NCBI GenBank assembly: GCA_021790305.1
Contig: JAJYED010000003.1
Span: forward strand, 1-60,514
Direction: 5' to 3'
Length of the DNA stretch: 60,514 bases
Origin: Candidatus Micrarchaeota archaeon
Lineage (GTDB): Archaea; Micrarchaeota; Micrarchaeia; Micrarchaeales; CABMGC01
The translations under genes were made by a program, and so were the position numbers. Shown here in pieces: positions 10,424 through 60,514 of this stretch (position 1 is its first letter; each line of letters opens with the position of its first letter). The notes under the pieces are model-generated. The model was not told the DNA's origin, searched no databases, and worked only from the letters and a program-made list of their open reading frames with translations.

Positions 10424-13400
10424 TTATTTTCTATGTCTGAAGTACAGGAATAATGCAACCGCTATTATGATTATTACAATTATCAGGATATCCAATATCA
10501 TTCCAGTATTTGTTGGTACAGAAGTTACAGGTACTGTTGTTGAAGTTTGAATAGTAGTGGTGGCAGTTGTTGTTATAGTAGAGGTAACGTTGGTGTTAAG
10601 CAGCGCTATCACAGGATCCGAAGGAACTGCGAATTCAACTGTGCAGGCAGCAACATTCAACGTGAATGGAGTTATCTCCTGCCAAGTGCCGTTCCTCAAT
10701 ATGAATGGAGCTACATCTGAGTTTGGTATGCTGCATGAATAATGCAGTATCATATCTGCAGATACATTTGTGTTGTTTACAGTGTAGTTAAGCGCAGTTA
10801 TTACAGATTTGTTAAGTTTTTTTGATTGCAGTGTTGAATTGGTTACGTTTAGACTGAAGCAGCCTGATTCTGGTGCAATCTTTATGGTTGCGTTCAGTGA
10901 AGTATAGTTTATCGTGTATCCTGAAGTGTCATTGCATATCTTTGTAATCCCAGGGGAAGCGATTATTGGAGTTATTGTCGTTAATGGCATTACTGTTGAT
11001 GTTGAAGATGAAGAGATTGTTGAGGTTGTGCTGCTGGTAAGTGTTGAGTTCGGTCCGAAGTATCCTGTAGGTCCTCCTGCGTATGGATTACTTATCTGAG
11101 GAGCTGAAGATTTTAGTGTTACTTCACTGTTTATACTGTTAACTGTTACAGGAGTAGAAGCCGAATCTGTAATTAATACGCAGTAGTATGTTGTTGCAGT
11201 AGGAGTTACAGGGTTGAATGCGGTGCTCCCAGTAGTTAATGAGGATATTGTCTGGACAAGAGTACTCCCACCATTACAGGTTGAGGTTGTTGAGGAGTAT
11301 AACTTTGCAGTATAATCAGTCGTTCCTCCTGTCCATGTGGAACTGAAGGTTACTGACTGGCCATTATTTATTTTAGTGTTTGAAGGGCTGATTGTTGGAG
11401 TGGATAGATCAGGATTAATAATCGGCTCGGAATCTATGCTGTTTGTTATTGAGATTCCCAAGTTTAGTTTTACTACGTTGTTGCTGCCGTAGTTTGTTAC
11501 ATAGGCATATGTACCTGAAGGGGAGAAGGTTACTCCTGATGGATTGTTGAAGCCCGAGGTTATGGAGCCTGTTACGGTGTTGGTTGCGGTATTGATTATT
11601 ACTACATTGTTGCTGTTAAAGTTTGCAACGTAGGCATATGTGCCTGAAGGGGAGAAGGATACTCCTTCTGGGTAGCTGAAGCCTGAGGTTATGGAGTTTA
11701 CTACTGTGTTTGTTGCTGTATTGATTATTACTACGTTGTCTGGATCGCTTCCTTCACAGCTTGAATTGCAATTTGTCACGTAGGCATATGTACCTGAAGG
11801 GGAGAAGGATACTCCTGATGGTTCGCTGAAGCCTGAGGTTATGGAGTTTACTACTGTGTTGGTTGCTGTGTTTACTATTACTACATTTTCGCTGCCGGCA
11901 TTTGTCACGTAGGCATATGTACCTGAAGGGGAGAAGGATACTCCTGATGGTTCGCTGAAGCCTGAGGTTATGGAGTTTACTACTGTGTTGGATGCTGTAT
12001 TGATTATTACTACATTGTTGGCGTTGCCGTTAAAGTTTGCCACATAGGCATATGCACCTGAAGGGGAGAAGGCTACTCCTTCTGGTTCAGCGATGCCTGA
12101 TGAGATGTAACGTGATATGCTATTAGTATCAAAATTAATTACAGATATATTAGCATTAGTTGATTGAAATGGCCCATAAAAGTTTGCTACATAGGCGTAT
12201 GTACCTGAAGGGGAGAAGGCTACAGCGTACGGGCGATTCCCTGTAACTACTGAATTTGATATACTGTATGAATATAGTGTATTATCTACAACAAAGATAC
12301 AGTAATAAGTACCTGAATTAGTAGCTACTGGGGAAAAGGTAACTGAATTTGATGGGAGGTTTATATCCTGCTGGACAAGCGAACTTTGCTGGTTGCATGT
12401 AGATGTTGGTGAAGAGTAAAGTGATGCAGTGTAGTCAGGAGTTCCTCCTGACCATGTAGAACTGAATGTTATTGATTGTCCGTTGTCTATTGTTGGATTT
12501 GAAGGAGTTATTGTTGGAGCAGATAAATCCGGATTTACTGTTACTATATCATTTGCAGAACAGAGTGAGACTGGATTAGTTGCACTGTCCGTAACCTGAT
12601 AGGCATAACTGTTTGTTGAGGTTGGACTTGTTGTATATGTAGATGAAGTTGCACCTGATATTACGTTTGCAGATGTGCAGGTTACTCCTCCTGTTCCTGA
12701 TATTGTATACCATTTATAACTATATGGCGTGGTACCACCTGATGGGTTTGCCATTAGTGTTGTTGGTTTTCCAGCATCCACTGCAGGATTGGATGGAGTT
12801 ATTGGATTTGCAGACAGAGCAGGGTTGACTACTATTGATACGTATATGAGGTTTGTAGTTTCTGCGCCTATTCCTGGACTTATTATTGTTACATTGCCGC
12901 TATTAGAGTTTGCTATGTAGGCGTATGTGCCTGAAGGGGAGAAGGCTACTCCTAATGGTTCGCTGAAGCCTGAGGTTATGGAAGCTGTTACGGTATTTGA
13001 TGCTGTGTTTATTATTACTACGTTGTCTGGGATACTGGCTCCACAAGAAGAATTGCAGACTGCCACATAGGCATATGTGCCTGAAGGTGAGAAGGCTACT
13101 CCTTCTGGTGAAGCGAAGCCTGAGGTTATGGAGCCTGTTACGGTGTTGGTTGCGGTATTGATTATTACTACATTGTTGCTGTTAAAGTTTGCAACGTAGG
13201 CATATGTGCCTGAAGGGGAGAAGGATACTCCTTCTGGAAAGTTTATGCCTGAAGTTATGGAGTTTACTACTGTATTGGTTGCAGTGTTTATTATTACTAC
13301 GTTGTTGCTGTTACTGTTTGCCACATAGGCATATGTGCCTGAAGGTGAGAAGGCTACTCCTTCTGGGTTTTGGAAGCCTGAGGTTATGGAGTTTACTACT

Positions 13401-14092
13401 GTATTGGTTGCGGTGTTTATTATTACTACATTGTCTGGAATACCGGCGCTGCATGATGAATTACAATTTGTTACATAAGCATATGTGCCTGAAGGGGAGA
13501 AGGATACTCCTTCTGGAAAGTTTATGCCTGAAGTTATGGAGTTTACTACTGTATTGGTTGCTGTGTTTATTATTACTACATTGTCGGCATATTTATTTGT
13601 TGCATAGGCATATGTGCCTGAAGGGGAGAAGGCTACTCCTGCTGGTAAGCTGAAGCCAGAGTTTATGGAGTTTTCAGTATAATTAAGGGAGAGTTGTGTG
13701 ACTGGTGGAGATTCTGAGTCTGTTATACCAAGGCAGTAGCTGTTTGTTGTTGTTGGACTTACTGTTATTGAATTTGATGTTGTTGGCAGTCCGTTGTAGG
13801 TTGCAAGGACATTTGCTGCTTCCTGAGGGCAGGTTGTGCCGTATGGCCCGGTATACCAGACTGCATTATAAGGTGCAGTCCCGCCTGACCATGTACCTGT
13901 AATAGTAATGGACTGACCATTGTCTATTGTTGGAGTTACGGGATTTATTGAAGAGATAGACAGAGGGGATGGAGGTAAGGCATATGCATTTGCAATTGCA
14001 AATGTCAGTATTATTAAAGCAAATGCTATAGGTAAGGGTTTTTTAAGAATAGATTTTGGTGGTGTAATATTGCTCAAGATTGCATTATACAT
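10424..14092 (-). CDS. Giant cell-surface protein: signal peptide, two six-bladed YVTN-type beta-propellers, Ig/PKD-like modules, conserved C-terminal domain, C-terminal TM anchor
   Basis: Signal peptide KKPLPIAFALIILTFAIANAYA. Twelve blades of 42-43 aa with consensus GVAFSPSGTYAYV(T/A)N..NVVIINTATNTV..SITSGF. GGT.PY.Y.WY Ig-like modules. S/T linker. C-terminal ILDILIIVIIIIAVALFLYFRHRK. Confidence 0.85.
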   Translation of the reverse strand: MYNAILSNITPPKSILKKPLPIAFALIILTFAIANAYALPPSPLSISSINPVTPTIDNGQSITITGTWSGGTAPYNAVWYTGPYGTTCPQEAANVLATYNGLPTTSNSITVSPTTTNSYCLGITDSESPPVTQLSLNYTENSINSGFSLPAGVAFSPSGTYAYATNKYADNVVIINTATNTVVNSITSGINFPEGVSFSPSGTYAYVTNCNSSCSAGIPDNVVIINTATNTVVNSITSGFQNPEGVAFSPSGTYAYVANSNSNNVVIINTATNTVVNSITSGINFPEGVSFSPSGTYAYVANFNSNNVVIINTATNTVTGSITSGFASPEGVAFSPSGTYAYVAVCNSSCGASIPDNVVIINTASNTVTASITSGFSEPLGVAFSPSGTYAYIANSNSGNVTIISPGIGAETTNLIYVSIVVNPALSANPITPSNPAVDAGKPTTLMANPSGGTTPYSYKWYTISGTGGVTCTSANVISGATSSTYTTSPTSTNSYAYQVTDSATNPVSLCSANDIVTVNPDLSAPTITPSNPTIDNGQSITFSSTWSGGTPDYTASLYSSPTSTCNQQSSLVQQDINLPSNSVTFSPVATNSGTYYCIFVVDNTLYSYSISNSVVTGNRPYAVAFSPSGTYAYVANFYGPFQSTNANISVINFDTNSISRYISSGIAEPEGVAFSPSGAYAYVANFNGNANNVVIINTASNTVVNSITSGFSEPSGVSFSPSGTYAYVTNAGSENVVIVNTATNTVVNSITSGFSEPSGVSFSPSGTYAYVTNCNSSCEGSDPDNVVIINTATNTVVNSITSGFSYPEGVSFSPSGTYAYVANFNSNNVVIINTATNTVTGSITSGFNNPSGVTFSPSGTYAYVTNYGSNNVVKLNLGISITNSIDSEPIINPDLSTPTISPSNTKINNGQSVTFSSTWTGGTTDYTAKLYSSTTSTCNGGSTLVQTISSLTTGSTAFNPVTPTATTYYCVLITDSASTPVTVNSINSEVTLKSSAPQISNPYAGGPTGYFGPNSTLTSSTTSTISSSSTSTVMPLTTITPIIASPGITKICNDTSGYTINYTSLNATIKIAPESGCFSLNVTNSTLQSKKLNKSVITALNYTVNNTNVSADMILHYSCSIPNSDVAPFILRNGTWQEITPFTLNVAACTVEFAVPSDPVIALLNTNVTSTITTTATTTIQTSTTVPVTSVPTNTGMILDILIIVIIIIAVALFLYFRHRK
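11459..12259 (-). repeat. Blade-coding tandem repeats (propeller 2 of the 10424-14092 gene)
   Basis: Six consecutive blade units with the same conserved DNA core as propeller 1. Confidence 0.8.
12875..13675 (-). repeat. Blade-coding tandem repeats (propeller 1 of the 10424-14092 gene)
   Basis: Six consecutive units of about 126-140 bp sharing long identical DNA stretches such as gcatatgtgcctgaaggggagaagg. Confidence 0.8.
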
Positions 14093-14163
14093 TATATCAT
14101 AAATATCGTAATAATATAATTATAATAATATATTAGTACACAGGTGTCTGATTGCGTATTAGA

Positions 14164-16551
14164 TTATGCAATGCCCGTATTTATGCTTATGTTAAGTTCT
14201 GTTGTCTCCCCTGCCGATATGTTTACCGATCTCGGGATTATTCGTGTGCATCCTATGTAATGGCAGTTCAGCATGCTTACCGAGTAAGAGCCTGCATCTA
14301 CCTGTTCTGAGTATGTGCCATTTGCGCTTATCGGTATTGTGTAATTGTATACATTGTTCATTGACGTGAGTTCCAGTTTGAGGCTTGAATAGAGTGTGTT
14401 AAGGTCTATGCTACCTATGCAAGTGTTGTTAATCGATTGGACGGGACATAATGGGCCTATAGATACGTGTCCCTGAATCATACCTAAGCCGGTCTGATTT
14501 TGTGGCATAGTAGTTACAGTAGTAATTGTAGAGTTCCCTGTATTATTGCTGCTGTTCTGCTGCTCTGTCGTATTATGTAATACTGAATATACTGTCTTTA
14601 TTGATAGTGGCCCGTAATACTGATAATCCGGAGATTTTATGGTGAGAACTGCGGCTCTTATCTTCTGACCTGCTATACATACAAAGCAATGTATACTGCC
14701 TGAAGAGCAGACAGGACATTTGCCAGGAATATATTCCATTATATATGTTGTACCTAGAAGCGTAAAGCCAGGAGTAAGTATGCTTATGTTCTTCAGTGTG
14801 TACCCAGAATAATAATTATCGTATGATCCTGAGAGTAACGGCAAGGTATAGTTCGCAGTTCCGTTTATCGTTGATGTGAAACCCTGTAGAGAGACATTGT
14901 ATGAGAGATTTCCTGCTAAAACCTGCTCGTTCACTATGCTCACTCCGACAAGCTTTGAAGTGTAATTGCTTATGCTGCCTTGATCGGAAGCAGTGTAATT
15001 AGCGTTTGCAATCCCTGAATGTTGCTGCCCTATTCCAATTACTTTTATACTGTAATTCTGGCCAGGTATGAGAAGTATCTTTGTTACACCTCTGAAGAAT
15101 GGCAGCGAGTCTGTTGCATGTGGCAGCATACCTATCCCGAGAGTGCTGTTGAAGTGCAGATCTGCTGAAGCTCCTGGCTTAACTGACAGACCCGTAAAGC
15201 TTCTGCAACCTATGAATGCACCAATCCCATTATCATGAGAGACTTCGCAGTTTGGCACATAATTGAATATAGGGAGTGAAAGTGTCCCGTTGTTAAGTAC
15301 GATGAAGTTAAGGTAATTGTTGAACTTGTTGACGAACGAACCTGCTGCACTTGTCTCAAGTTCACTCTGGTTCTTTGATTCCGAGTTTGCAGATATGGAT
15401 ACCGTACTCCTGCTTATGCACATTATCCCTACACATGCATTTACCGAACCTCCTTCATTTGAATTGGCATTTATTGTTGGTGAATAGCCCTGATAGCCAA
15501 GCCTCACCTCTTCCATGAAGCCATTAAGCTGCATGTTTGTCAGATTGACGGTTGTGTTGCCGGTGTTCTTTACCCCTATCGACATCATTGTTGAGTTGCC
15601 AGATGAGATCAATGTAGCATTTGTTATCATTATGCTACTGTTTGACCTTATTCTGCGGATTATGCCAGGATTTATCCTCTCGACATAACCTATGCTCCTG
15701 GCACTTGCCGCCTCGGATCTGCCTATGAATATCGCTTTGACATTTGGAACCATCACGAATATGCTCTCATTGTTCTGCGAGTATATCCTGACTATTGTAG
15801 GATTCATGTTTATCAGAGCACCGCCTATCGAGGAGTTGGAACTTGAATTTAGCTGTGCTTCCACATAGCCCTGAGGTACATTAACGTTGTAGGTAGTATT
15901 ATCTATAGTTATATTTGCAGAGGTTATGTTGAGTCTTAGATCCTTTATCTTACTGTAGTTCTTCACGTTTAGGATGGCTATCGTCTTTGTAACATTGGTC
16001 AGGTTGAGAAGGTCGGATGTGCCACTGGTATTGAAGTACTCAAATGTTGACGAATTTGCATAGAACAGACCTACTGATGAGTATCTTATCATTAGTGATG
16101 ACGTTCCGGGCGGTACAAGAGGCGGATCCGTAAGCTGCACTACGAAGTTGCCCTGTGCTGAGGAGTTCGAGTACTGTGAATTGAATGAAGGAGGAACAGT
16201 GGAGTAGTTTGCTCCGGGATAAACTGGCGCCCTGCTATTGAATAGGAATATGCCGATAACCGCTATCGCGATTATTGCAAGTATTCCTACTGCGAAAGCC
16301 CTTACCTTTGCGACATTGTAACCGCTGTCCTCAAGGCGCTTTTCGAATCCCTTGTTATATTCGTAGTACTTCCACTTCCTGCTGTAAGGGTTCTCTATCT
16401 CTTTTATAGCGCCTATCCTTAGCAGCTCTTTTATGTGCTGATTTGTAGTAGACTGGCCCAGATCCAGCTTTTCAGATATCTGGGTCATTGTCATAGGCTT
16501 CTCTTTCACCAGTTCTATTATCTTCTTCTTGCTTTCAAAGAGTTTGCTCAT
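14164..16551 (-). CDS. Membrane-tethered ArsR-type winged-helix regulator with a large (about 680 aa) extracellular, sequon-rich domain
   Basis: N-terminal IIELVKEKPMTMTQISEKLDLGQSTTNQHIKELLRIGAIKEI (ArsR-like HTH). Single TM VRAFAVGILAIIAIAVIGIFLF. Long Asn/Ser/Thr-rich ectodomain. Start taken at ATG 16551 (MSKLFESKKK). Confidence 0.65.
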   Translation of the reverse strand: MSKLFESKKKIIELVKEKPMTMTQISEKLDLGQSTTNQHIKELLRIGAIKEIENPYSRKWKYYEYNKGFEKRLEDSGYNVAKVRAFAVGILAIIAIAVIGIFLFNSRAPVYPGANYSTVPPSFNSQYSNSSAQGNFVVQLTDPPLVPPGTSSLMIRYSSVGLFYANSSTFEYFNTSGTSDLLNLTNVTKTIAILNVKNYSKIKDLRLNITSANITIDNTTYNVNVPQGYVEAQLNSSSNSSIGGALINMNPTIVRIYSQNNESIFVMVPNVKAIFIGRSEAASARSIGYVERINPGIIRRIRSNSSIMITNATLISSGNSTMMSIGVKNTGNTTVNLTNMQLNGFMEEVRLGYQGYSPTINANSNEGGSVNACVGIMCISRSTVSISANSESKNQSELETSAAGSFVNKFNNYLNFIVLNNGTLSLPIFNYVPNCEVSHDNGIGAFIGCRSFTGLSVKPGASADLHFNSTLGIGMLPHATDSLPFFRGVTKILLIPGQNYSIKVIGIGQQHSGIANANYTASDQGSISNYTSKLVGVSIVNEQVLAGNLSYNVSLQGFTSTINGTANYTLPLLSGSYDNYYSGYTLKNISILTPGFTLLGTTYIMEYIPGKCPVCSSGSIHCFVCIAGQKIRAAVLTIKSPDYQYYGPLSIKTVYSVLHNTTEQQNSSNNTGNSTITTVTTMPQNQTGLGMIQGHVSIGPLCPVQSINNTCIGSIDLNTLYSSLKLELTSMNNVYNYTIPISANGTYSEQVDAGSYSVSMLNCHYIGCTRIIPRSVNISAGETTELNISINTGIA

Positions 16552-16679
16552 GCAATAACACAGTAATAGCATATGCAATAAGGATTAATAAACCTGAATA
16601 ATTGCATCGGTTTTGTTTCGGTTTTCCCTCAGCATATGTAAAAACCGAAGCTTTGCAAAGGATACAGGAGTTATGATGT

Positions 16680-17429
16680 TTATTTTCCACCGTGCTTTTC
16701 CGTAACCTCTTTGTATGAATCGTGCGTGCCTATGTCATACCAGAAATCGTCGTACACTACAGCATGCACATCGTTCTTGTTCTTCACAAGCCATTGCATG
16801 AAGTATCCTGGAGAGTCAGGATTGTTCTTGTTTGCTATATACTCATCGAACTTCTTCAAGTGCTCTTTTGGTATTGCATATATGCATGTGCTTATCAGCG
16901 TGGATTTAGGATTCTCCGGTTTTTCCTCAAATTCCTTGATTATGCTTCCTTCAAGGCTTACGACCCCGAAGCGTTTTGCCTCATCTAGGCTCTTTATGTT
17001 GTGCAGTGCGGTTACTATCTTCCTGTCGCTCTTTGACTTTGTCATGAGTTTTGAAAGGTCAAAATTGTGGAAGTTGTCTCCTGCCACTATCAGGAGGTCA
17101 GAGTTCAGCCCGAGCGTCTTTATTGTATAGTCTATGCCTTTTACTGCTCCGAACTTTTCACCCTCGTGCATTGTAGGTTCAACAACGAGCTCTATGTGCA
17201 CGTTCTTTACGGCCTTTCTGTGTGCTATCCAGTATCTGAACTGCTTCTCGAACTTCTTGTTTGTAGAGACTATTATTCTGTCGAAATTGTTAGGGATGAG
17301 GCCGTCGAGTATATAGTCTATCATCAGTTTGTCCCCTATAGGGAGTAAAGGTTTTGGTATGTAGGTGGTTATTGGTTCCAGCCTCTTTGCATAGCCACCG
17401 CAAAGTATCAACGCATCTATGATAAACAC
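16680..17429 (-). CDS. Sugar-1-phosphate nucleotidyltransferase
   Basis: N-terminal ALILCGGYAKRLEPITTYIPKPLLPIG is the nucleotidyltransferase G-x-G-x-R-L loop. GTG start. Confidence 0.75.
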   Translation of the reverse strand: MFIIDALILCGGYAKRLEPITTYIPKPLLPIGDKLMIDYILDGLIPNNFDRIIVSTNKKFEKQFRYWIAHRKAVKNVHIELVVEPTMHEGEKFGAVKGIDYTIKTLGLNSDLLIVAGDNFHNFDLSKLMTKSKSDRKIVTALHNIKSLDEAKRFGVVSLEGSIIKEFEEKPENPKSTLISTCIYAIPKEHLKKFDEYIANKNNPDSPGYFMQWLVKNKNDVHAVVYDDFWYDIGTHDSYKEVTEKHGGK

Positions 17430-17641
17430 CGATAAATTGTATGTTGCTTAATTACTTTAAGAAGCATTAAGTGAATCTAAGATTCTATAGCTTCATATTT
17501 AAACCTTGCTGAACCCTTTTTAAACCACTGTCTTATGTGTGCTTTGCGATACGCTTATTCTGCTGTTATTACTGATACGTTTTTAAATGAGGACGATTGT
17601 TGTGATGATGTGATAAAACGGCAAAGGTTACTGTAAAGAGA

Positions 17642-18601: not shown

Positions 18602-18656
18602 GATAGCCAGGATAGGAGAGTTTAAATAATTCGCATTGTATATATAATGGGGTTCG

Positions 18657-19241: not shown

Positions 19242-19385
19242 TTATCCTAGTCTTGATTTTGGCAGTATATTATTTCTTTGGACAGTTGCTTCACGCTATT
19301 CCTCAAAAACAATATAAAACTCTTGCACCTATCCTTATTGGTGCTTGTGTTGAAAAAGGAGGCGTTCAGTGGGAGCGTAACGTAT

Positions 19386-21394: not shown

Positions 21395-21396
21395 AA

Positions 21397-22641: not shown

Positions 22642-22642
22642 T

Positions 22643-24783: not shown

Positions 24784-24789
24784 CGGTTT

Positions 24790-25671: not shown

Positions 25672-25688
25672 TCTCTCACATTATTTTG

Positions 25689-26093: not shown

Positions 26094-26157
26094 ATGTCAA
26101 CACTTGTAGGATATGTTCGTATATAAATTATAACGTTCAAGAATAATAAACGTTGGC

Positions 26158-28791: not shown

Positions 28792-28792
28792 G

Positions 28793-31971: not shown

Positions 31972-32035
31972 TTGAAAACCGATTAAAGCAGTAATATAAA
32001 CTGTTATTATTAATTAATAAGTGTGCGGTAATGAA

Positions 32036-33355
32036 ATGAAGGGCCAATCTGCTATAGAATTCATAACAGTATATGGGTTTATGCTGATAATTGCTGCGCT
32101 TTTCATAGCTCTGATAGTTTTGTTCGCCTTCTCGGCCCAGGATTCGATACAGACCTCGCAATGCAGCGGCTACTCTGGTTTATATTGCACTAGCGCGCAG
32201 GTAGCGTATAATGTCGTTGCCAGAAATTCCTTAGTATACTTAGCGCTTGACAGCGAACAGAGCGCTCCGGTAAATATCATCGGGATAAATGTCATAATAA
32301 ATAATGCGACTTATGCAGGAACCTGTAATCCGACTATTGCTGCTCCTGCAGAGCGTGTAAACTGCACAATAGGAGTTAACTCCATAACTAGGAATGGACA
32401 GCAGATAGTCGGTTCTTATACCATAAACGGGCAGTACTGCAACTCTCCTGTGTACAACGTCTCAGTAGAAGCATGCGCATACCAGAATGTGACGTATACG
32501 GGCTTCTTTTCCACATATGTTACCAACCACCTTAGCTTAGGTTATACGAATTATATCGTCCCTGCAAACGTAGTTGGAGTAGTAAGCGGAAGCTTCTGTT
32601 GCGTTGAAGGAATCGCGTTTGCACCTTCAGGAAGCTACGCATATGCTACCGAATTTAACACAAATAGGCTGGCAATAATAAACACGGCAACGAACTCGTT
32701 AAAAAATACCATAAGTCCTGGCTTAAACGTCCCTTATGGTGTTGCCTTTGTTCCTTCCGGAGATTATGCATATGTAGCTAACTTGAATTTTGGAGGTTTT
32801 CCTTATATAAGCGTTGTAGATACTGCAACAGAGACCCAGACAGGGAAGATTAATATCGAGGGAGTTAACCTGCTGCTGCTTGAAGGGGTGGCCGTTTCGC
32901 CTAACGGAGCTAATGCATGGTTAAGCGGATATGGAAATGTTTTAGAGCTCAATACTGCAACCAATACGATGACCCAGACTAGCACAGACATATCTAGTAG
33001 TGGATTAGTGGTTAGCCCTGATGGGCAGTATGTCTACGTAATAGACCTGGGCACGGAAGATATACTGAAGATAAGCACCACGACTGGAGATGTCGTAAGT
33101 TCTATCGGTTCTAGTATGATAGACAATCCCAGTGGTATCGCAATAACCCCTGATGGAAAGTATTTGTATCTGGCAAATACTGACTCAAATCAAGTATTAA
33201 TAATAAGTACAGCGACAGGCAATGTTATCAGTACGATTAACAATGGTTTCAGTCACCCTTCAGGAATAGCCATTGCGCCTGGAGGCTCCTACGGATATGT
33301 AGGTAATCCCGGATCTAGCAATGTGGTTATAATAGATACAGGGGGCTATAATTAG
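32036..33355 (+). CDS. Type IV pilin-like (class III signal peptide) protein fused to a YVTN beta-propeller
   Basis: N-terminus MKG/QSAIEFITVYGFMLIIAALFIALIVLF, with Glu at +5 after the predicted Gly cleavage site. The C-terminal half has blades such as IAFAPSGSYAYATEFNTNRLAIINTATN, VAFVPSGDYAYVANL, IAITPDGKYLYLANTDSNQVLIISTATG, IAIAPGGSYGYVGNPGSSNVVIID. Confidence 0.75.
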   Translation: MKGQSAIEFITVYGFMLIIAALFIALIVLFAFSAQDSIQTSQCSGYSGLYCTSAQVAYNVVARNSLVYLALDSEQSAPVNIIGINVIINNATYAGTCNPTIAAPAERVNCTIGVNSITRNGQQIVGSYTINGQYCNSPVYNVSVEACAYQNVTYTGFFSTYVTNHLSLGYTNYIVPANVVGVVSGSFCCVEGIAFAPSGSYAYATEFNTNRLAIINTATNSLKNTISPGLNVPYGVAFVPSGDYAYVANLNFGGFPYISVVDTATETQTGKINIEGVNLLLLEGVAVSPNGANAWLSGYGNVLELNTATNTMTQTSTDISSSGLVVSPDGQYVYVIDLGTEDILKISTTTGDVVSSIGSSMIDNPSGIAITPDGKYLYLANTDSNQVLIISTATGNVISTINNGFSHPSGIAIAPGGSYGYVGNPGSSNVVIIDTGGYN

Positions 33356-47061: not shown

Positions 47062-47099
47062 ACGCAGTGCTGAATCCGCATCCTAATCGCACATCCGCA

Positions 47100-47696: not shown

Positions 47697-47810
47697 TTTG
47701 TCGCCAAAGACTCTATTGCGCAGGATTATGTATTAAAAAGCTTTCCCGCTCCTGCAAATTGTGGAATAAACAGAATGCCATTCCCAAAATACGAATCTCT
47801 AATTGCGAAT

Positions 47811-49142: not shown

Positions 49143-49164
49143 CTACACCACTGACCGTATTTTT

Positions 49165-49608: not shown

Positions 49609-49652
49609 GAATACCACTATTTATTCTATTATTATAATAATAAATTCTTGCA

Positions 49653-50776: not shown

Positions 50777-50830
50777 AAAATAACCCTTATAGAGTATAAG
50801 ACCTTGATATTATTGCACTGAATAAGTTTA

Positions 50831-51658: not shown

Positions 51659-51685
51659 CTACTCATTCCTTTTGCTTTTATCTCT

Positions 51686-52906: not shown

Positions 52907-52924
52907 TTTTACACCTATTAAGAA

Positions 52925-54037: not shown

Positions 54038-55026
54038 TACCTTCTGCTCAAAAGCTGTCTTCCTTTATATTCTCCGGAGGTGTCCCTGGCCTCGGAGCCC
54101 GTAAGCTTCAGGAAGACGTCGTCTATTGTGGGCTCGTGCATGCTCACATTGCGTACGTTTATCTTTGCAGTAGACATTGCCGAAAGCAATGATTCTATCT
54201 TCTTTGTTGCGTTGCTCCCTCCCGGCGCGGTAACCTTGCTGTTGAGTATGGTCGGTTCCAGCCCTATCTTCCTGAATATGCCTGCCACTTTCTGCAGATC
54301 CTCCTTGTCTGCAGTTATCTCTATCACATTTGTAAGGCCTATGTTAGTCCTAAGTTCGTCCGGGGTTCCAAGCGCTATCAGCTTGCCGTGGTCTATTATG
54401 CCTATCCTGTCGCAGAGCTGATCTGCCTCTTCCAGATACTGCGTTGTCATGAGAATCGTCACTCCCTGCTTCTTGTTTATGTCCCTGAGCAGGTTCCATA
54501 TCTGTGCCCTGTTCTGTATGTCAAGTCCTGTCGTAGGCTCGTCAAGCAGGATTATCTCCGGAGTGTGCATCAGCGATTTTGCAACCTCCAGTCTTCTCTT
54601 CATACCTCCTGAAAAGGTACCTGCGTAGGACTTCCTGAACTGTACAAGGTCAGAGAGCTCCAGGGCGAACTCTATGCTATTATGAAGCTCTGATCTAGGT
54701 ATATGGTATAGTTTCCCGAATATCATCAGATTCTGCTCTGCGGTAAGCTCAGGTTCCACTACGGTCTCCTGCGTCACTACGCCTATGTGCGTCCTTGCCT
54801 TAACAGGATCGCCGCTCATGTCCACCCCGTTTATCAATATTCTTCCTGAGGTAGGCTGGAGCAGCCCGAGGAGCATGCTTATCGTAGTGCTCTTCCCTGC
54901 CCCGTTTGGTCCCAGGAGTCCGAATATCTCTCCCTTTTTAATCTTCAGATTTACTCCGTTGACTGCAGTGAAGTCTCCGAACCTCTTGACTACGTTTTCT
55001 ATACTCACTGCATATTCTTCGGCCAT
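54037..55026 (-). CDS. ABC transporter ATP-binding protein
   Basis: Walker A GPNGAGKST, signature FSGGMKRRL, Walker B ILLDEPTTGLD. Confidence 0.9.
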   Translation of the reverse strand: MAEEYAVSIENVVKRFGDFTAVNGVNLKIKKGEIFGLLGPNGAGKSTTISMLLGLLQPTSGRILINGVDMSGDPVKARTHIGVVTQETVVEPELTAEQNLMIFGKLYHIPRSELHNSIEFALELSDLVQFRKSYAGTFSGGMKRRLEVAKSLMHTPEIILLDEPTTGLDIQNRAQIWNLLRDINKKQGVTILMTTQYLEEADQLCDRIGIIDHGKLIALGTPDELRTNIGLTNVIEITADKEDLQKVAGIFRKIGLEPTILNSKVTAPGGSNATKKIESLLSAMSTAKINVRNVSMHEPTIDDVFLKLTGSEARDTSGEYKGRQLLSRR

Positions 55027-55400
55027 TAATTGTCACCCATTAGCATTGAGAACGCCTTTATCATCTCTTCGCGTATCTTCATCGCCTTCTTCAGGGCTTC
55101 CTGTCCCTTCTTTGTAGATTTATAATATTTGTGTATCCTGCCTGACTTCAGCTCGGTCTTTGATGTTATGTACCCCTGCTTCTCAAGCGCGCTTATGGCA
55201 TTGTACACATCGCTTTTGGTCACGTCAGATAGCAATCCCTTTCCGTGCCATGCCTCACAGCCCTTCTTCATATCGCTTGCGATCGAATATGGATAGTTCC
55301 AATCCTTAAGCTTGCTGAGGATGACTACCTTCAGCACGTATTTGGATATCTCCTTGTAAGGATTGCCTAATGGTTTGTGTATATTTGCTGCAGAGGACAT
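55026..55400 (-). CDS. PadR-family transcriptional regulator
   Basis: VLKVVILSKLKDWNYPYSIASDM...YNAISALEKQGYITSK...RIHKYYKSTKKGQEAL. Confidence 0.75.
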   Translation of the reverse strand: MSSAANIHKPLGNPYKEISKYVLKVVILSKLKDWNYPYSIASDMKKGCEAWHGKGLLSDVTKSDVYNAISALEKQGYITSKTELKSGRIHKYYKSTKKGQEALKKAMKIREEMIKAFSMLMGDN

Positions 55401-55401
55401 A

Positions 55402-55431
55402 GTTTAAATTTAGACTAATATATATTTAAAC
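55402..55431. promoter_or_regulatory. 8-bp inverted repeat (GTTTAAAT-N14-ATTTAAAC) directly upstream of padR: candidate operator/TATA region
   Basis: Arms at 55402-55409 and 55424-55431 are exact reverse complements. Confidence 0.3.
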
Positions 55432-55477
55432 CTTACTTGATTCTCTTTAGGAGCTTCCTTAGAAAGCGTGCCCTAAT

Positions 55478-55494
55478 AAGCATTTAAAATGCTT
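55478..55494. promoter_or_regulatory. Perfect palindrome AAGCATTT-A-AAATGCTT, 23-39 nt upstream of the GT2 gene
   Basis: Arms are exact reverse complements. The centre TTTAAAA is TATA-like. Confidence 0.3.
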
Positions 55495-55516
55495 CGAGTA
55501 TATTATAATTGGTCGT

Positions 55517-56419
55517 ATGAAGCCGAAGGTAAGCGTAGTAATACCAACTGTTGAAGAGGAGAGCGTCTTCAAGCTAGTTAAACAGATAAGAACCGTACTT
55601 GGAAGGAATACAGAGATAATAATAGTTGATAAGTCAAGTGATGCTTATTTCAAAAGGCTCAAGTCGACTGGAGCTAAAATCATACGGCAGAAAGGACGCG
55701 GGGTTGAGAACGCAGTTATGATAGGGCTCAGAGAGGCAAAGGGAGAGTATATTGCAAGCATAGATGCTGACGGAACGCATGACCCCAAGGGCCTTGCTGA
55801 AGCGCTTAAGGTAGTTGAATCTGGAAAAGCAGATTTTGTACTTGGGAACAGGATGAGCGGGCTTACCAAAGGGTCAATGCAGATGTACATACGCTTCGGG
55901 AATGGCATGCTGAGCTGGCTCTACAGCACTCTCTACCATACAAAGGTACATGATGTATTAACAGGTTTGTTCGTAGTTAATAGAGAGGCTTTTGAGGAGA
56001 TAAGAAATGTAGAGCCTTACAGGGCAGGGATAGCCTTCTTTGCCATAGAGCTTGCAAGAAGAGGGTATATCGTCAAAGAAGTGGATATAAAGTACTACAA
56101 ACGCGCTTATGGCGAGTCCAAGCTTACAAGGTCGAAATTTGCATACGGCTTCAATGTCGCATCGCACATAGTGAGGCAGCTGAGGGACTACAGCCCGTTG
56201 CTCATATTCGGACTGGTTGGAGGCATACTCTTCATAATAGGACTTATACTAGGGGTATTCGTGCTTGCAAGCTTCATATCCACAGGAGTATTTGCATTTG
56301 CCGGGAGGGCACTGCTCGCATTCATGCTTCTTGTCGTAGGATTTGTACTGATAACGGCAGGACTCATACTAGATCTTCTCCTTGAGATTGAGAAGAGGAT
56401 GGAACAAATGCATGGATAA
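55517..56419 (+). CDS. Family-2 glycosyltransferase (dolichyl-phosphate sugar synthase-like) with C-terminal TM helices
   Basis: VSVVIPTVEEE, IIVDKSSD, SIDADGTHDP (DxD-type). Two C-terminal TM helices. Confidence 0.8.
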   Translation: MKPKVSVVIPTVEEESVFKLVKQIRTVLGRNTEIIIVDKSSDAYFKRLKSTGAKIIRQKGRGVENAVMIGLREAKGEYIASIDADGTHDPKGLAEALKVVESGKADFVLGNRMSGLTKGSMQMYIRFGNGMLSWLYSTLYHTKVHDVLTGLFVVNREAFEEIRNVEPYRAGIAFFAIELARRGYIVKEVDIKYYKRAYGESKLTRSKFAYGFNVASHIVRQLRDYSPLLIFGLVGGILFIIGLILGVFVLASFISTGVFAFAGRALLAFMLLVVGFVLITAGLILDLLLEIEKRMEQMHG

Positions 56420-56462
56420 ACAGTAATTAAAAGTACAGAATATGTCCGCTATTCATCAATTA

Positions 56463-59400
56463 TTACTTTCTTCTCCTTGAATAGAGGTACAGCACAACTA
56501 CTACTATAATAATTATTACGATTGCGAGAATCGTCCATACCGTTTCCGTATTCTGCGGAGGAGTTGCCGCAGCAGCTGTTACTGATGTCTGAACAGCAGT
56601 AGTTGCAACAGTTGTTGGTATGGTTGAAGTAACATTCGTGTTAAGCAGTGCTATAACAGGATCCGAAGGGACTGTAAATTCCACCGTACATGCTGCAACA
56701 TTCAACGTGAATGGAGTTATCTCCTGCCAGGTGCCGTTCCTCAGTATGAATGGGGCAATATCAGAATTTGGTATGCTGCATGAGTAATGAAGGATCGCTT
56801 CAGCAGATACGTTGGTGTTGTTTACAGTGTAGTTAAGAGCTGTTATTACGGATCTGTTCAGTGTCTTGGACTGTAAGGTTGAGTTGGTCACATTTACATT
56901 GAAGCAGCCCCTTATTCCAGGAGCAATCTTTATGGTTGCGTTAAGCGAAGGATAGTTGATTGTGTATCCTGAAGTGTCATTGCATGCCTTTGTAATCCCA
57001 GAGGAAGCGATTATTTGTGTTATTGTTGTTACCGGCAGTATTGTTGAGGTTGAAGATGAAGAAGTTGTAGAGGTCGTGCTGCTGGTAAGTGTTGAATTAG
57101 GGCCGAAATATCCTGTTGATCCCCCGGAATATGGATTGCTGATCTGAGGACCGGTATTTACCATTACCTCGCTGTTTATGCTGTTAACTGTTACAGATGT
57201 TGTTGCGCTGTCTGTCACAAATATGCAGTAGTATGTGGTTGAGGTTGGACTTACTGAACTGAATAATGCACTTCCACCTGTTAAGGAAGATAAGGTTTGG
57301 ACTAAGGTTGATCCTGTGTTGCAGGTTGAGGTTGTTGATGAATACAGTTTGGCAGTATAGTCAGGCGTTCCTCTTGACCATGCGGAACTGAAGGTTACTG
57401 ATTGTCCTGAATTTATTGTAGGGTTTGAAGGAATTATTGATGGTATTGTTAGGGCCGTATTGACTGTAAATGCAGAGCTGTATATTGAATTTATAGTGGT
57501 TGGATGCGAATCTGTAACGACCACATTAAATACTAACGGGCTGTTTGCTGCATCTGCACCAACCGAAGTATATTCAAATGTATTGCTTGCAGATGATACT
57601 CCTGTAAAGAGCATGTTTGCGACTACCGAATCTGTTATGCTGTTTGAGATCAGCCAGTTGTAGGTATATGGCGCTACTCCTCCAGACACTGTGATTGTGC
57701 ATGATACTGTCTGCCCTGCATCAAGTATAGGCGATGATGGGCAGGAAGATAGGGTTGGTGTTGATAGAGGGGTATAGGTTATTGTCAAGATTCCTGATTT
57801 TACTGAATTTGCGGTTTCTGGGGAATAAGCGCTATCTGTTACTATCACGTTTGCCTGTACAGTATTTCCTATATCAGCTCCCGGTATCGTCCATGCGAAG
57901 GAGTTGGTTGTCGATGCGACGTTGGTGAAGAGCATGTTTGCAACTAGATTTCCTGTTACCGTATTTGTTATCAGGTAGTTGTAAGTATATGGAGAGGTTC
58001 CTCCTGTCGCTGTTGCCGTAAATGTTATTGTATTTCCATTGCCCTGCGAAGAAGGAAGGGATGGTAAGGAAGCCAATGTAGGCACACCGAGTGAAGGATT
58101 CACAGTTACTTCGCTGTCTATACTGTTTACTGTTGGAACACCAGAGTTGATTATGGTAAGATTTTCATCGTATAAATTTGTTACATATGCGTAGGAGCCG
58201 TCAGGGGAGATGGCTACTCCGAATGGATCAGGAAAGTTTGGAAGAGCTATGTATCCAGCTACAGTATTTGTTGCAGTGTTTATTATTGTTATATTATCAG
58301 GAGGGTTTCCATTGCAGTCATTATTACAAATTGAGATATAAGCATAGCTTCCTGAAGGAGCTATTGCGACTCCCTGCAGAGTACCAAGTGAATTGAACGT
58401 TATTGCTGATACTACTGTATTGGATGCTGTGTTTATTATTACTACGTTGTTGCTGCCAGAGTTTGCCACATAGGCATATGTGCCTGAAGGGGAGAATGAT
58501 ACTCCTAGTGGATTACTGAAGCCTGAGGTTATTGATTTTACTACCGCATTGGATGCTGTGTTGATTATTACTATGTTGTCTGTACCACTACCTCCACAGG
58601 AGGTGTTACAATTTGTTACATAGGCATAGTTGCCTGAAGGAGAGAAGGCTACTCCTCCTGGTTCATAGAAGCCAGAATTTATGGAGCCTGTTACAGTGTT
58701 GGATGCTGTGTTGATTATTAGTACATTATTGTTACCAAAGTTTGTCACATAGGCATATGTGCCTGAAGGGGAGAAGGCTACCCCCTGTGGACTGCTGAAA
58801 CTAGAAGTTATTGAGCCTGTTACAGTGTTGGTTGCTGTGTTTACGATCACTACATTGCCAAAGTTTGTTACATAGGCATATGTGCCTGAAGGGGAGAAGG
58901 CTACTCCTTCAGGATCATTATACCCTTTGATAGAATTTGACTGTGCGTTTGCCATATACGAGTTTAGATCATTATCTGTTATGTACGTACAATAATACGT
59001 ATTGGAAGTAGGAGATACTGTGGAGAAGGTGATTGAATTTGATGAAATTCCTATGTCTTGTTGTATTAAGGTAGACTGCTGGTTGCAGGTTGAGGTTGTA
59101 GAATAATAGAATGATGCAGAATATGGAGGTGTTCCTCCTGTCCATGATGTTGTGAATGCTATTGATTGCCCTAAATCTATTTTAGGGTTTGACGGAACCA
59201 TATAGACATTTGACATGTCAGGATTCACCGTTACCTTCAATGTTTGGGTATAGACTGATTCTGGTGTTGTAGCTGAATCTGTTATTTCAGCACAATAATA
59301 GGTATTTGAAGTAGGCGAGAATATTTCGGATTGGTTTGTGAAACCGCTTACGATTGAATCTGAACTGCATGTTGCAGAACTTCCTGAATACCACTGATAT

Positions 59401-60514
59401 TTGTAGGGGGAAGTACCCGTAGTTGGGGTAGTTATATCCAGGGTTATAAAATGGCCACTATCTACTATCGGATAAAAAGTTGTGATAGAGGTAGCGCTTA
59501 ATTTAGGATTTACGGTTATGAATGATGATATTGGGTTTGTAATTTCTGAACCAATTCCTGGACTGATTATTACTACGTTGTTGCCTCCGTTGTTTGCCAC
59601 GTAGGCATATTTGCCTGAAGGGGAGAAGGCTACTCCGTGTGGAGTTAATATCCCGTATTTTATTGCTCCTGTTACAGTATTGGTTGCAGTATTGATTATA
59701 GTTACATTATAGCGATTGTATTTTGTTATAGCGTTGCTGTTGTAATTTGTCACGTAAGCATAGCTTCCTGATGGAGAAACTGCTACTGCTATTGGATTAT
59801 AGAAGCCAGAGGTTATGGAGTTTACTACTGTGTTGGATGCTGTGTTTATTATTACTACGTTGTTGCTGTTGTAATTTGTCACGTATGCAAATGTGCCTGA
59901 AGGGGAGAAGGATACTCCTGCTGGAGAGTTGAAGCCCGCGGTTATTGTATTTACTACTGTGTTTGACGCTGTGTTTATTATTACTACGTTGTTGCTGTTG
60001 TAATTTGTCACGTATGCAAATGTACCTGAAGGGGAGAATGCTACTCCTGCTGGGGAGTTGAAGCCCGCGGTTATTGTGTTTACTACTGTGTTGGATGCTG
60101 TGTTTATTATTACTACGTTGTCGGGACCGCTACCTCCACAGGTGCTGTTGCAATTTGTCACATAGGCATATGTGCCTGAAGGGGAGAAAGCCACTCCTGC
60201 TGGTTCGGCGTATAATCCTGAGGTTATGGAGTTTACTACTGTATTTGTTGCTGTGTTTACGATTACTGCATTGCCAAAGTTTGTTACATAGGCATATGCA
60301 CCTGAAGGGGAGAATGCTACTCCTGCTGGTAAGCTGAAGCCAGAGTTTATGGAGTTTTCAGTATAATTAAGGGAGAGTTGTGTGACTGGTGGAGATTCCG
60401 AATCAGTTATACCCAGGCAGTAGCTGTTTGTTGTTGTGGGGCTTACTGTTATTGAATTTGATGTTGTTGACAGACCGTTGTAGGTTGCAAGGACATTTGC
60501 TGCTTCCTGAGGAC
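56463..60514 (-). CDS. Paralogous giant YVTN double-propeller surface protein (5' end outside window)
   Basis: I translated 60195-60514 by hand. It stays open in frame and reads ...SPTTTNSYCLGITDSESPPVTQLSLNYTENSINSGFSLPAGVAFSPSGAYAYVTN..., matching residues 112-166 of the 10424-14092 product. The ORF-track start at 60194 is an internal GTG (Val of GVAFSPSG). Two six-blade propellers, five Ig-like modules, the same C-terminal domain and a TM anchor. Confidence 0.85.
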   Translation of the reverse strand, partial: PQEAANVLATYNGLSTTSNSITVSPTTTNSYCLGITDSESPPVTQLSLNYTENSINSGFSLPAGVAFSPSGAYAYVTNFGNAVIVNTATNTVVNSITSGLYAEPAGVAFSPSGTYAYVTNCNSTCGGSGPDNVVIINTASNTVVNTITAGFNSPAGVAFSPSGTFAYVTNYNSNNVVIINTASNTVVNTITAGFNSPAGVSFSPSGTFAYVTNYNSNNVVIINTASNTVVNSITSGFYNPIAVAVSPSGSYAYVTNYNSNAITKYNRYNVTIINTATNTVTGAIKYGILTPHGVAFSPSGKYAYVANNGGNNVVIISPGIGSEITNPISSFITVNPKLSATSITTFYPIVDSGHFITLDITTPTTGTSPYKYQWYSGSSATCSSDSIVSGFTNQSEIFSPTSNTYYCAEITDSATTPESVYTQTLKVTVNPDMSNVYMVPSNPKIDLGQSIAFTTSWTGGTPPYSASFYYSTTSTCNQQSTLIQQDIGISSNSITFSTVSPTSNTYYCTYITDNDLNSYMANAQSNSIKGYNDPEGVAFSPSGTYAYVTNFGNVVIVNTATNTVTGSITSSFSSPQGVAFSPSGTYAYVTNFGNNNVLIINTASNTVTGSINSGFYEPGGVAFSPSGNYAYVTNCNTSCGGSGTDNIVIINTASNAVVKSITSGFSNPLGVSFSPSGTYAYVANSGSNNVVIINTASNTVVSAITFNSLGTLQGVAIAPSGSYAYISICNNDCNGNPPDNITIINTATNTVAGYIALPNFPDPFGVAISPDGSYAYVTNLYDENLTIINSGVPTVNSIDSEVTVNPSLGVPTLASLPSLPSSQGNGNTITFTATATGGTSPYTYNYLITNTVTGNLVANMLFTNVASTTNSFAWTIPGADIGNTVQANVIVTDSAYSPETANSVKSGILTITYTPLSTPTLSSCPSSPILDAGQTVSCTITVSGGVAPYTYNWLISNSITDSVVANMLFTGVSSASNTFEYTSVGADAANSPLVFNVVVTDSHPTTINSIYSSAFTVNTALTIPSIIPSNPTINSGQSVTFSSAWSRGTPDYTAKLYSSTTSTCNTGSTLVQTLSSLTGGSALFSSVSPTSTTYYCIFVTDSATTSVTVNSINSEVMVNTGPQISNPYSGGSTGYFGPNSTLTSSTTSTTSSSSTSTILPVTTITQIIASSGITKACNDTSGYTINYPSLNATIKIAPGIRGCFNVNVTNSTLQSKTLNRSVITALNYTVNNTNVSAEAILHYSCSIPNSDIAPFILRNGTWQEITPFTLNVAACTVEFTVPSDPVIALLNTNVTSTIPTTVATTAVQTSVTAAAATPPQNTETVWTILAIVIIIIVVVVLYLYSRRRK
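59842..60099 (-). repeat. Two nearly identical 129-bp tandem blade-coding repeats
   Basis: The gtgtttattattactacgttgttgctgttgtaatttgtcacgtatgcaaatgt... unit starts at 59842 and 59971, and the next unit starts at 60100. Only a handful of mismatches between copies. Confidence 0.85.

What the first reader, a model, noticed from the sequence alone, without database searches (positions are those of the whole stretch)
10424..60514. Paralogous giant double-propeller YVTN surface proteins with near-identical termini and divergent cores, in direct orientation about 42 kb apart
The genes at 10424-14092 and 56463-60514 share the same architecture: two six-bladed YVTN propellers separated and followed by Ig-like GGT.PY.Y.W modules, then an S/T linker, an about 170-aa C-terminal domain, a T-rich stalk, a TM anchor and a basic tail.

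DNA comparison:
- N-terminal coding DNA (13630-13830 vs 60310-60514) is about 90 percent or more identical by eye.
- C-terminal domain DNA (about 10560-11100 vs 56600-57150) is also highly similar.
- The middle differs in number and sequence of Ig-like modules. The second gene has extra GGTSPYTYNYLITN and GGVAPYTYNWLISN modules.

Conserved ends with variable cores in direct repeat suggest a recombining adhesin family: antigenic or host-range variation, or recombination-mediated deletion or duplication of the intervening 42 kb. For a small-celled or symbiotic archaeon these are prime candidates for cell-cell attachment proteins.
Basis: partly seen in the sequence, partly recalled or inferred. 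Interest (0 to 1): 0.65.

Follow-up and report, generated by a model that had tools for sequence, protein, structure and literature searches.

The report
Mosaic YVTN surface-protein paralogs, Micrarchaeota
Two large membrane-anchored surface proteins of a tiny symbiotic archaeon (Micrarchaeota) are old gene copies whose first ~420 bases have recently been copied from one to the other, while their similar tails are kept alike by selection. They belong to a known kind of modular propeller/Ig surface protein that is reshuffled between related strains and is a plausible but untested host-contact factor.

Summary
Gene A (10424-14092, 1222 aa) and gene B (56463 to beyond the window end, 1437 aa) lie in direct orientation 42.4 kb apart. 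Both have a signal peptide, an Ig-like module, two six-bladed YVTN propellers with further Ig-like modules, an S/T linker, a ~128-aa C-terminal beta-sandwich, a T-rich stalk, a TM helix and a basic tail. B has two extra Ig modules.

The two similar ends have different causes:
- N-terminal block (codons 20-160): 94% identical, with a 122-nt perfect run and dS 0.19, against 0.66-1.5 in the core. This indicates recent gene conversion.
- C-terminal domain: 89% identical in protein but dS 0.74 and dN/dS 0.08. This is purifying selection, not recombination.

Related assemblies support module reshuffling:
- A positional ortholog of B carries a third propeller.
- One relative has A reduced to a remnant.

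The intervening 42 kb holds essential genes, so deletion by A×B recombination is not credible. The C-terminal domain is an uncurated, order-restricted anchor module (528 clusters). The class of protein is already described (PDB 1L0Q; Mia14 paper). Verdict: ordinary but well-documented; interest about 0.3.

The parts
10424..14092 (-). Gene A, 1222 aa: leader, shared N-terminal block, Ig1, propeller 1, Ig2-Ig3, propeller 2, Ig4, S/T linker, C-terminal domain, stalk, TM, basic tail
14036..14092 (-). A-specific leader (codons 1-19, signal-peptide n-region). Unrelated to B's leader. An AT-rich 71-nt intergenic region lies upstream.
13613..14035 (-). Shared N-terminal block of A (codons 20-160: signal-peptide h-region, Ig1, start of blade 1). 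94% identical to B, dS 0.19. Inferred gene-conversion tract.
13893..14014 (-). 122-nt stretch perfectly identical between A and B
   Evidence: permutation maximum 52
12863..13672 (-). A propeller 1: six YVTN blades
   Evidence: 24 strands, pLDDT about 90
12257..12862 (-). A Ig2-Ig3 modules (GGTTPYSYKWY and GGTPDYTASLY types). Most diverged from B (53% aa, dS 1.5).
11453..12256 (-). A propeller 2: six blades. Includes two adjacent blades that share a 92-nt perfect repeat, and one blade 97% identical to a blade of propeller 1.
11108..11452 (-). A Ig4 module (GGTTDYTAKLYSS type)
10973..11107 (-). A S/T-rich linker with the conserved PQISNPYAGGPTGYFGP motif
10589..10972 (-). A C-terminal beta-sandwich domain (uncurated, order-restricted anchor domain). 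dN/dS versus B is 0.08.
10424..10588 (-). A T-rich stalk, TM helix, basic tail, stop codon
56463..60514 (-). Gene B, the part inside the window (1349 of 1437 codons). The gene continues across a 10-N scaffold gap to its ATG at contig position 60785.
60301..60514 (-). In-window part of B's shared N-terminal block
59541..60356 (-). B propeller 1: six blades in this assembly. Two adjacent blades are 92% identical, and one blade is absent from the megahit assembly.
58098..58940 (-). B propeller 2: six blades
57453..58097 (-). Two extra Ig-like modules present only in B (GGTSPYTYNYLITN, GGVAPYTYNWLISN). Weak SprB and Ig_3 Pfam matches.
56634..57017 (-). B C-terminal beta-sandwich domain
56463..56633 (-). 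B T-rich stalk, TM helix, basic tail, stop codon
14093..56462 (.). Intervening 42.4 kb of core chromosome. Not part of the family apart from a third YVTN gene at 32021-33355. Contains GluRS, SRP54, eIF6, prefoldin, SdhA/B, fumarase, a 2-oxoacid dehydrogenase complex and others.

Best explanation
A and B are two old paralogs of a modular family of type I membrane-anchored cell-surface proteins of Micrarchaeota (DPANN archaea).

Build of each protein:
- It is exported by a Sec-type signal peptide.
- It is held in the membrane by a C-terminal TM helix with a short basic cytoplasmic tail.
- A Thr-rich stalk, probably glycosylated, raises it above the membrane.
- A conserved ~128-aa beta-sandwich sits next to the membrane. 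The same anchor module carries at least four different heads in this genome.
- The outward-facing head is a chain of Ig-like spacer modules and six-bladed YVTN propellers, which are the likely binding units.

Evolution of the genes, by homologous recombination at three scales:
1. Gene conversion between paralogs has recently homogenised the first ~420 nt after the leader.
2. Conversion between blades within a gene keeps some blades near-identical.
3. Unequal or illegitimate recombination between repeated Ig modules and blades adds, removes or swaps whole modules between strains.

The C-terminal module stays alike because of strong purifying selection, not recombination.

Shown: the architecture, the pattern of synonymous divergence, and the module differences between assemblies.
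Inferred: surface exposure, glycosylation, the binding role and any role in host contact.
For: Architecture
- YVTN repeats.
- Top PDB match by sequence and by fold is 1L0Q, the archaeal surface-layer YVTN propeller plus PKD protein.
- AF2 models show six-bladed propellers and Ig-like modules and a beta-sandwich, stalk and TM helix.

Segment-wise Nei-Gojobori values, A versus B
- N-terminal block: dS 0.19.
- Propellers: dS 0.66-1.0.
- Ig2-3: dS 1.55.
- C-terminal domain: dS 0.74 with dN/dS 0.08.
- Fisher test on synonymous third positions, N-terminal block versus C-terminal domain: p = 1e-5.
- 122-nt perfect run, against a permutation maximum of 52.
- In the N-terminal block, A versus B (dS 0.19) is as close as B versus its positional ortholog B' (dS 0.19).
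- Only 3 interior sites separate the A-type from the B-type across two genomes.

Third paralog
- Its C-terminus has 54 residues identical to A with only 84% identical DNA.

Independent assemblies
- They reproduce B's N-terminus (L001, L015) and A's N-terminus (L025).

Module change
- B' (L015) has flanks 96% identical but the gene is 77-100% identical in patches, and it carries an extra propeller.
- Propeller dN between B and B' is 0.10-0.16, against 0.000-0.018 in flanking genes.
- The architecture table of 18 family members shows combinatorial module orders.
- A is reduced to a remnant in L025.
- Blade-to-blade identity reaches 97% within A.

The anchor module
- It is shared with proteins that have other heads on C37, C13 and C31.
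- It has 528 clusters, lies a median of 62 aa from the C-terminus, and 176 of 200 hits have a hydrophobic run after it.
Against: - All sequences are metagenome assemblies, and repeats of this kind are prone to collapse and chimeras.
- The scaffold gap sits in the repeat.
- The second assembly lacks exactly one blade in each gene.
- The four-taxon test does not show conversion after the strains split: 8 sites support AA'|BB' and 2 support AB|A'B'. Timing and direction of conversion are therefore open.
- dS in the propellers is blurred by ambiguous blade alignment.
- There is no expression, localisation or binding data.
- dN/dS stays below 1 everywhere except the short stalk/TM segment of B versus B' (dN/dS 1.17 over 55 codons at dS 0.02, too few changes to interpret), so there is no sign of positive selection.
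- The N-glycosylation sequon density is modest, 1.3-1.6 per 100 aa.
Confidence: 0.7

Rival explanations
1. There is no recombination. A and B are old paralogs, and both similar ends merely reflect stronger purifying selection on the signal peptide plus Ig1 and on the anchor module.
For: This is true for the C-terminal module: dN/dS 0.08 at dS 0.74, and 54 identical residues over 84% identical DNA in the third copy. Ig1 is also well conserved in protein across the family, 85-93%.
Against: - Synonymous sites in the N-terminal block are 89% identical, against 65% in the equally constrained C-terminal domain (p = 1e-5).
- dS is 0.19 against 0.66-1.5 elsewhere.
- There is a 122-nt perfect run.
- More distant homologs of the same block are only about 80% identical in DNA, so the DNA itself is not constrained.
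Confidence: 0.1
2. It is an assembly artefact. The near-identical N-terminal block, the scaffold gap and some module differences come from chimeric or collapsed metagenome contigs, not from biology.
For: - A 10-N gap lies exactly in the repeat.
- The megahit assembly drops one 43-aa blade in both genes.
- Many homologs come from short contigs.
Against: - A and B blocks differ at 23 positions and each continues into its own unique leader and flank.
- B's block is identical in a second assembly, and the gap is one base.
- A's leader plus block recurs in MAS1.bin53 and B's in a JGI contig from other studies.
- The L025 deletion junction has no long shared sequence that could mislead a de Bruijn assembler.
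Confidence: 0.08
3. It is a dedicated variation system. The shared N-terminal block and C-terminal module act as handles for swapping whole cores between expression loci, giving programmed antigenic or host-range switching.
For: - The N-terminal block is homogenised.
- Some family members combine B-like cores with A-like tails (P0006, P0008, P0009).
- A patch of B' in the C-terminal domain is closer to A (92.5%) than to B (85%).
Against: - There are no silent cassettes. Both genes are full-length with their own starts and unrelated upstream DNA.
- C-terminal DNA is only 84% identical, with a longest perfect run of 35 nt, which is a poor substrate.
- Cores of A and B are at dS 0.7-1.5, so they have not been exchanged recently.
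- No within-population chimeras could be looked for.
Confidence: 0.12

Closest known systems
Methanosarcina mazei 'surface layer protein' with tandem YVTN beta-propeller and PKD domains (PDB 1L0Q; Jing et al. 2002, cited in PMC5498576)
   Same: An archaeal secreted protein in which a YVTN-repeat propeller is followed by an Ig-like/PKD domain. It is the best PDB hit by sequence (E 1.7e-39) and by fold (E 3.3e-25).
   Different: - 1L0Q has a seven-bladed propeller; the propellers here are six-bladed and there are two per protein.
- The Ig-like modules here do not reach Pfam PKD (E 0.016). They carry a GGT.PY.Y.W motif of SprB type.
- The C-terminal beta-sandwich, stalk and TM anchor module is not part of the 1L0Q structure.
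Strain-specific PKD / YVTN / Kelch surface proteins of the ARMAN-2-related Micrarchaeon Mia14 (Golyshina et al. 2017, PMC5498576)
   Same: Same phylum, same domain vocabulary, same proposal of a role in cell-cell interaction with the Thermoplasmatales host, and the same 'strain-specific' character.
   Different: That paper does not describe paralog mosaicism, gene conversion or the shared C-terminal anchor module. I did not compare the Mia14 proteins directly.
Gene-conversion-based surface variation families of bacteria (for example Neisseria pilE/pilS, Mycoplasma genitalium MgPa repeats, Borrelia vlsE), from general knowledge
   Same: Paralogous surface-protein DNA with segmental homogenisation and mosaic alleles.
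   Different: Here both copies are complete, separately promoted genes. The converted segment is the conserved N-terminus, not the variable part. There are no silent cassettes, and no switching has been shown.
Micrarchaeota S-layer protein SLP_Mh (Micr_00292, PF05123; bioRxiv 10.1101/2021.04.28.441871)
   Same: A glycosylated envelope protein of the same phylum. That paper speculates that a TM-anchored partner may act as a stalk.
   Different: No PF05123 match in A or B. The architecture is different. A and B are not the S-layer lattice protein.

Membership tests
YVTN beta-propeller repeat proteins (TIGR02276) | Multiple YVTN repeats above the curated cut-off | tested here: met
   222.6 and 192.1 bits against a cut-off of 27.85, with 9 stretches in each protein
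YVTN beta-propeller repeat proteins (TIGR02276) | The repeats fold into a closed beta-propeller | tested here: met
   24 strands, i.e. 6 four-stranded blades, pLDDT about 90; 1L0Q is the top fold match. The blade number differs: six here, seven in 1L0Q.
1L0Q-type archaeal surface proteins (propeller + PKD) | A PKD domain follows the propeller | tested here: inconclusive
   The AF2 model shows Ig-like beta-sandwiches after the propeller. Pfam gives only Ig_3 at E 4e-6 (below cut-off), K319L-like PKD at E 0.016 and SprB at 1.4e-6.
1L0Q-type archaeal surface proteins (propeller + PKD) | Secreted and surface located | not testable with these tools
   An N-terminal hydrophobic signal with an ANAYA motif and a C-terminal TM helix are seen in the sequence and the model. 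There is no localisation data.
Micrarchaeales C-terminal anchor module (uncurated; defined here) | A ~128-aa beta-sandwich with HY.C / APFILRNGTW / ITPF / C.V.F / DPVIAL motifs, followed by a Thr-rich stalk, a TM helix and a basic tail within about 60 aa of the C-terminus | tested here: met
Cassette-type antigenic variation systems | Silent or partial donor cassettes feeding one expression site | tested here: not met
   Both genes are full-length with their own ATG and unrelated upstream DNA. No truncated cassettes were found in the 742-kb MAG.
Cassette-type antigenic variation systems | Variant or chimeric alleles within one population | not testable with these tools
Only between-assembly differences were seen.
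GAIN / ZU5 / FIIND autoproteolytic juxtamembrane domains | Fold similarity plus an H-[LF]-[ST]-type cleavage motif before the last strand | tested here: not met
   Foldseek top hits are ZU5, GAIN and FIIND, but with E 0.02-0.11 and TM 0.40-0.44. There is no conserved nucleophile after HY (the residue is S, P, N, K or R). The PDB profile search found nothing.
Micrarchaeota S-layer protein (PF05123) | N-terminal S-layer domain PF05123 | tested here: not met
   No such Pfam hit

The most novel reading that the evidence does not exclude
Micrarchaeales keep a combinatorial repertoire of surface heads on one order-specific anchor module. They use the repeated Ig modules, the blades and the homogenised N-terminal block as built-in recombination sites. 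Within a population, cores and modules would then be exchanged between loci at appreciable frequency, tuning which host cells can be bound. This would be an archaeal, cassette-free counterpart of bacterial and protozoan surface-variation families.
Probability: 0.15. Interest if true: 0.6.

Novelty: new member of a known kind. Interest (0 to 1): 0.3.

Why it matters
DPANN archaea depend on physical contact with a host, and the molecules that make this contact in Micrarchaeota are unknown. These genes are concrete candidates. They are large, exposed, strain-variable in the propellers (dN ten-fold or more above neighbouring genes), and carried on a conserved anchor.

The useful results here are:
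1. The two 'conserved ends' have different causes, which removes the idea of a simple two-handle recombination cassette.
2. The C-terminal domain is an uncurated, order-restricted anchor module that marks the surface proteome of these organisms (1-12 copies per genome).
3. The 42-kb deletion idea can be dropped.

None of this changes the general picture already proposed for Mia14.

Tried and rejected
- Metagenome scan with A found only one weak locus.
- Fetching the A ortholog from the 104-kb JGI contig failed because the record is not held. Conservation of the 42-kb spacing there is therefore unverified.
- Rfam and tRNA scans of the window found nothing, so no RNA element explains the conserved N-terminal DNA.
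- A PDB sequence-profile search with the C-terminal domain found nothing. Pfam and NCBIfam have no model for it.
- I first thought contigs C13 and C31 were two halves of one third paralog. I rejected this: C31's fragment is the end of an 852-aa single-propeller protein (P0025 / L014).
- I expected the four-taxon test to show conversion after strain divergence. It did not.
- The third propeller of B' is not a recent copy of this genome's paralog C; identity is only 80-87%.
- S-layer protein identity is rejected: no PF05123 match.


Full report
**1. What is there**

The window is contig C34:1-60514 of a 742-kb, 37-contig MAG. Related loci carry the title 'Candidatus Micrarchaeota archaeon'.

- Gene A is 14092..10424 on the minus strand, 1222 aa.
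- Gene B begins outside the window at contig position 60785 and ends at 56463.
- The window stops exactly at a 10-N scaffold gap that lies inside B.
- An independent megahit contig (L001, about 99% identical) shows that the gap stands for a single base and that B is intact, about 1437 aa.
- Both genes are on the minus strand, with 42,370 nt between them.

**2. Architecture**

- NCBIfam finds the YVTN repeat (TIGR02276) nine times in each protein. Twelve blade motifs, 6 + 6, are visible in each.
- The best solved relative is 1L0Q, the Methanosarcina surface-layer protein with a YVTN propeller and PKD domains. It is the top hit by sequence and by fold.
- An AF2 model of A residues 38-620 (pLDDT 82) gives Ig-like, a 24-strand six-bladed propeller, Ig-like, Ig-like.
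- A model of the last 187 residues (pLDDT 84) gives a ~127-aa beta-sandwich, a disordered Thr-rich stalk and a TM helix.
- B has two extra Ig modules before the last Ig module.

The only adjustment is that the folded C-terminal domain is about 128 aa; it reaches 170 aa only with the S/T linker.

**3. The mosaic, and why the two ends differ**

Codon-aligned comparison of A and B:

| Segment | nt identity | dS | dN/dS |
|---|---|---|---|
| Leader (codons 1-19) | unrelated | | |
| N-terminal block (codons 20-160) | 94% | 0.19 | 0.13 |
| Propeller 1 | 74% | 0.66 | |
| Ig2-3 | 58% | 1.55 | |
| Propeller 2 | 68% | 1.0 | |
| Ig4 | 72% | 1.0 | |
| C-terminal domain | 84% | 0.74 | 0.08 |
| Stalk/TM | 62% | | |

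- The N-terminal block contains a 122-nt perfect run; the permutation maximum is 52.
- Its synonymous third positions are 89% identical, against 65% in the equally protein-conserved C-terminal domain (Fisher p = 1e-5).
- So the N-terminal block is young, which points to gene conversion. The C-terminal domain is old but strongly constrained.
- A third family member confirms this. The fragment at the start of contig C31 encodes 54 residues identical to A with only 84% identical DNA, so every difference is synonymous.

**4. Is the N-terminal block real?**

- B's block is identical in L001.
- A's leader plus block recurs in MAS1.bin53 (L025), and B's recurs in a JGI contig (L015).
- Pairwise identities in the block: A-B 94.5%, A-A' 92.4%, B-B' 93.0%.
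- A four-taxon count gives 8 sites for AA'|BB' (5 of them at the 5' edge) and 2 for AB|A'B'.
- The block is thus almost undifferentiated between paralogs, but I cannot show that conversion happened after these strains split.
- A versus B in the block (dS 0.19) equals B versus B' in the block (dS 0.19).

**5. Recombination elsewhere in the family**

- Within A, blade 4 of propeller 1 and blade 5 of propeller 2 are 97% identical in DNA. Adjacent blades in propeller 2 share a 92-nt perfect repeat.
- L015 is the positional ortholog of B: the same neighbours (L10e upstream; GT2, PadR, ABC transporter, SRP54 and others downstream) and flanks 96% identical.
  - Inside the gene, identity ranges from 77 to 100% in patches.
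  - The last Ig module is replaced.
  - A third propeller is present, giving 1719 aa.
- Between B and B', propeller dN is 0.10-0.16, against 0.000-0.018 in five flanking genes. The extra Ig modules and the C-terminal module are nearly unchanged.
- A table of 18 family members shows many different module orders and head/tail combinations.
- In L025 the A locus, with conserved neighbours, holds only an 840-nt frameshifted remnant joining blade 1 to the C-terminal domain. The junction has no long homology.

**6. Caveats**

- Everything is metagenome-derived.
- The megahit assembly lacks exactly one 43-aa blade in both A and B, at the near-identical tandem blades. This is either repeat collapse or real copy-number variation.

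**7. The anchor module**

- The same S/T linker, beta-sandwich, stalk and TM module ends other proteins of this genome that have unrelated heads: C37, 1071 aa, and the start of the module at the cut end of the 1155-aa ORF on C13. It also ends the single-propeller paralog P0025, whose tail is on C31.
- A profile of the domain finds 528 cluster representatives among 1.84 billion (402 at E <= 1e-10). They lie a median of 62 residues from the C-terminus, and 176 of 200 have a hydrophobic run after the domain.
- It occurs in 28 of 43 sampled genomes of the same order, with up to 12 copies, and in 0 of 38 genomes of other orders of the class.
- Pfam, NCBIfam and PDB sequences have no match.
- Foldseek gives only weak similarity to ZU5, GAIN and FIIND domains.

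**8. The 42-kb interval**

It encodes the following:
- a 2-oxoacid dehydrogenase complex;
- GluRS;
- a PMT_2 glycosyltransferase;
- a FlaI-type ATPase;
- SdhA/B and fumarase;
- SRP54, eIF6 and prefoldin;
- an ABC transporter.

Deletion by recombination between A and B would remove essential single-copy genes. The gene order next to B is the same in two other assemblies.

**9. Function**

The proteins are most likely extended, glycosylated, membrane-anchored binding proteins projecting through or beyond the S-layer. The S-layer protein itself is a different protein (PF05123), with a 20-25 nm pseudoperiplasm (bioRxiv 10.1101/2021.04.28.441871).

A role in contact with the Thermoplasmatales host is plausible. 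It was already proposed for the equivalent 'strain-specific' PKD/YVTN proteins of Mia14 (PMC5498576). Fast-evolving surface proteins are also reported for Nanoarchaeota (PMC6142677). Nothing here tests binding.

**10. Verdict**

- This is a new, well-characterised member of a known kind, of modest interest.

Noticed in passing
10589-10972 and 56634-57017: The C-terminal beta-sandwich is an uncurated domain family, restricted to one order. An Asp-Pro pair is about 90% conserved in the turn before the last strand. The Foldseek top hits, all weak, are the autoproteolytic-type ZU5, GAIN and FIIND domains. Asp-Pro is the acid-labile peptide bond and Micrarchaeota are described as acidophiles (bioRxiv 10.1101/2021.04.28.441871), so self-cleavage or shedding is an untested idea.
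   Followed up: partly
11453-12256 and 59541-60356: Each gene has two adjacent near-identical blades. A second assembly (P0004, P0014) lacks exactly one 43-aa blade in each gene. This is either assembly collapse or blade copy-number polymorphism.
   Followed up: partly
60515-60524 of contig C34 (just past the window end): The 10-N scaffold gap stands for a single base (T), according to an independent contig. The window boundary therefore cuts gene B artificially.
   Followed up: yes
L025:2995-3835 (MAS1.bin53, JAJZKU010000005.1): In a same-genus MAG the A locus, with the same neighbours, holds only a frameshifted remnant: the N-terminal 170 aa plus the C-terminal 113 aa. About 2.85 kb is missing.
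   Followed up: partly
14164-16578 (-): Directly upstream of A lies an 804-aa protein with an N-terminal ArsR/TrmB-type wHTH, one TM helix and a large extracytoplasmic part with a weak DUF4382 match. It is conserved next to the A locus in L025 and could be a membrane-bound regulator.
   Followed up: no
32021-33355 (+): A third YVTN propeller gene (444 aa) lies in the interval, about 41% identical to the A and B propellers. Another reader flagged it as having a pilin-like signal.
   Followed up: partly
8590-9735 (-): A Fic/DOC family protein is encoded immediately downstream of gene A. It is conserved at that position in L025.
   Followed up: no
genome contigs C13:8-3475 (-) and C37:~8000-11950 (-): Two further large surface proteins have unrelated heads (one Gly-rich with Ig modules, one of unknown fold). 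C37 ends in the same C-terminal anchor module. C13 runs off its contig end just after the start of the module.
   Followed up: partly
L015:4706-9330: Upstream of B's ortholog, the JGI strain carries a 4.6-kb insert absent from this genome. It encodes a HAD hydrolase, glycerate kinase, a nucleotidyltransferase and a metallo-beta-lactamase-fold protein.
   Followed up: no
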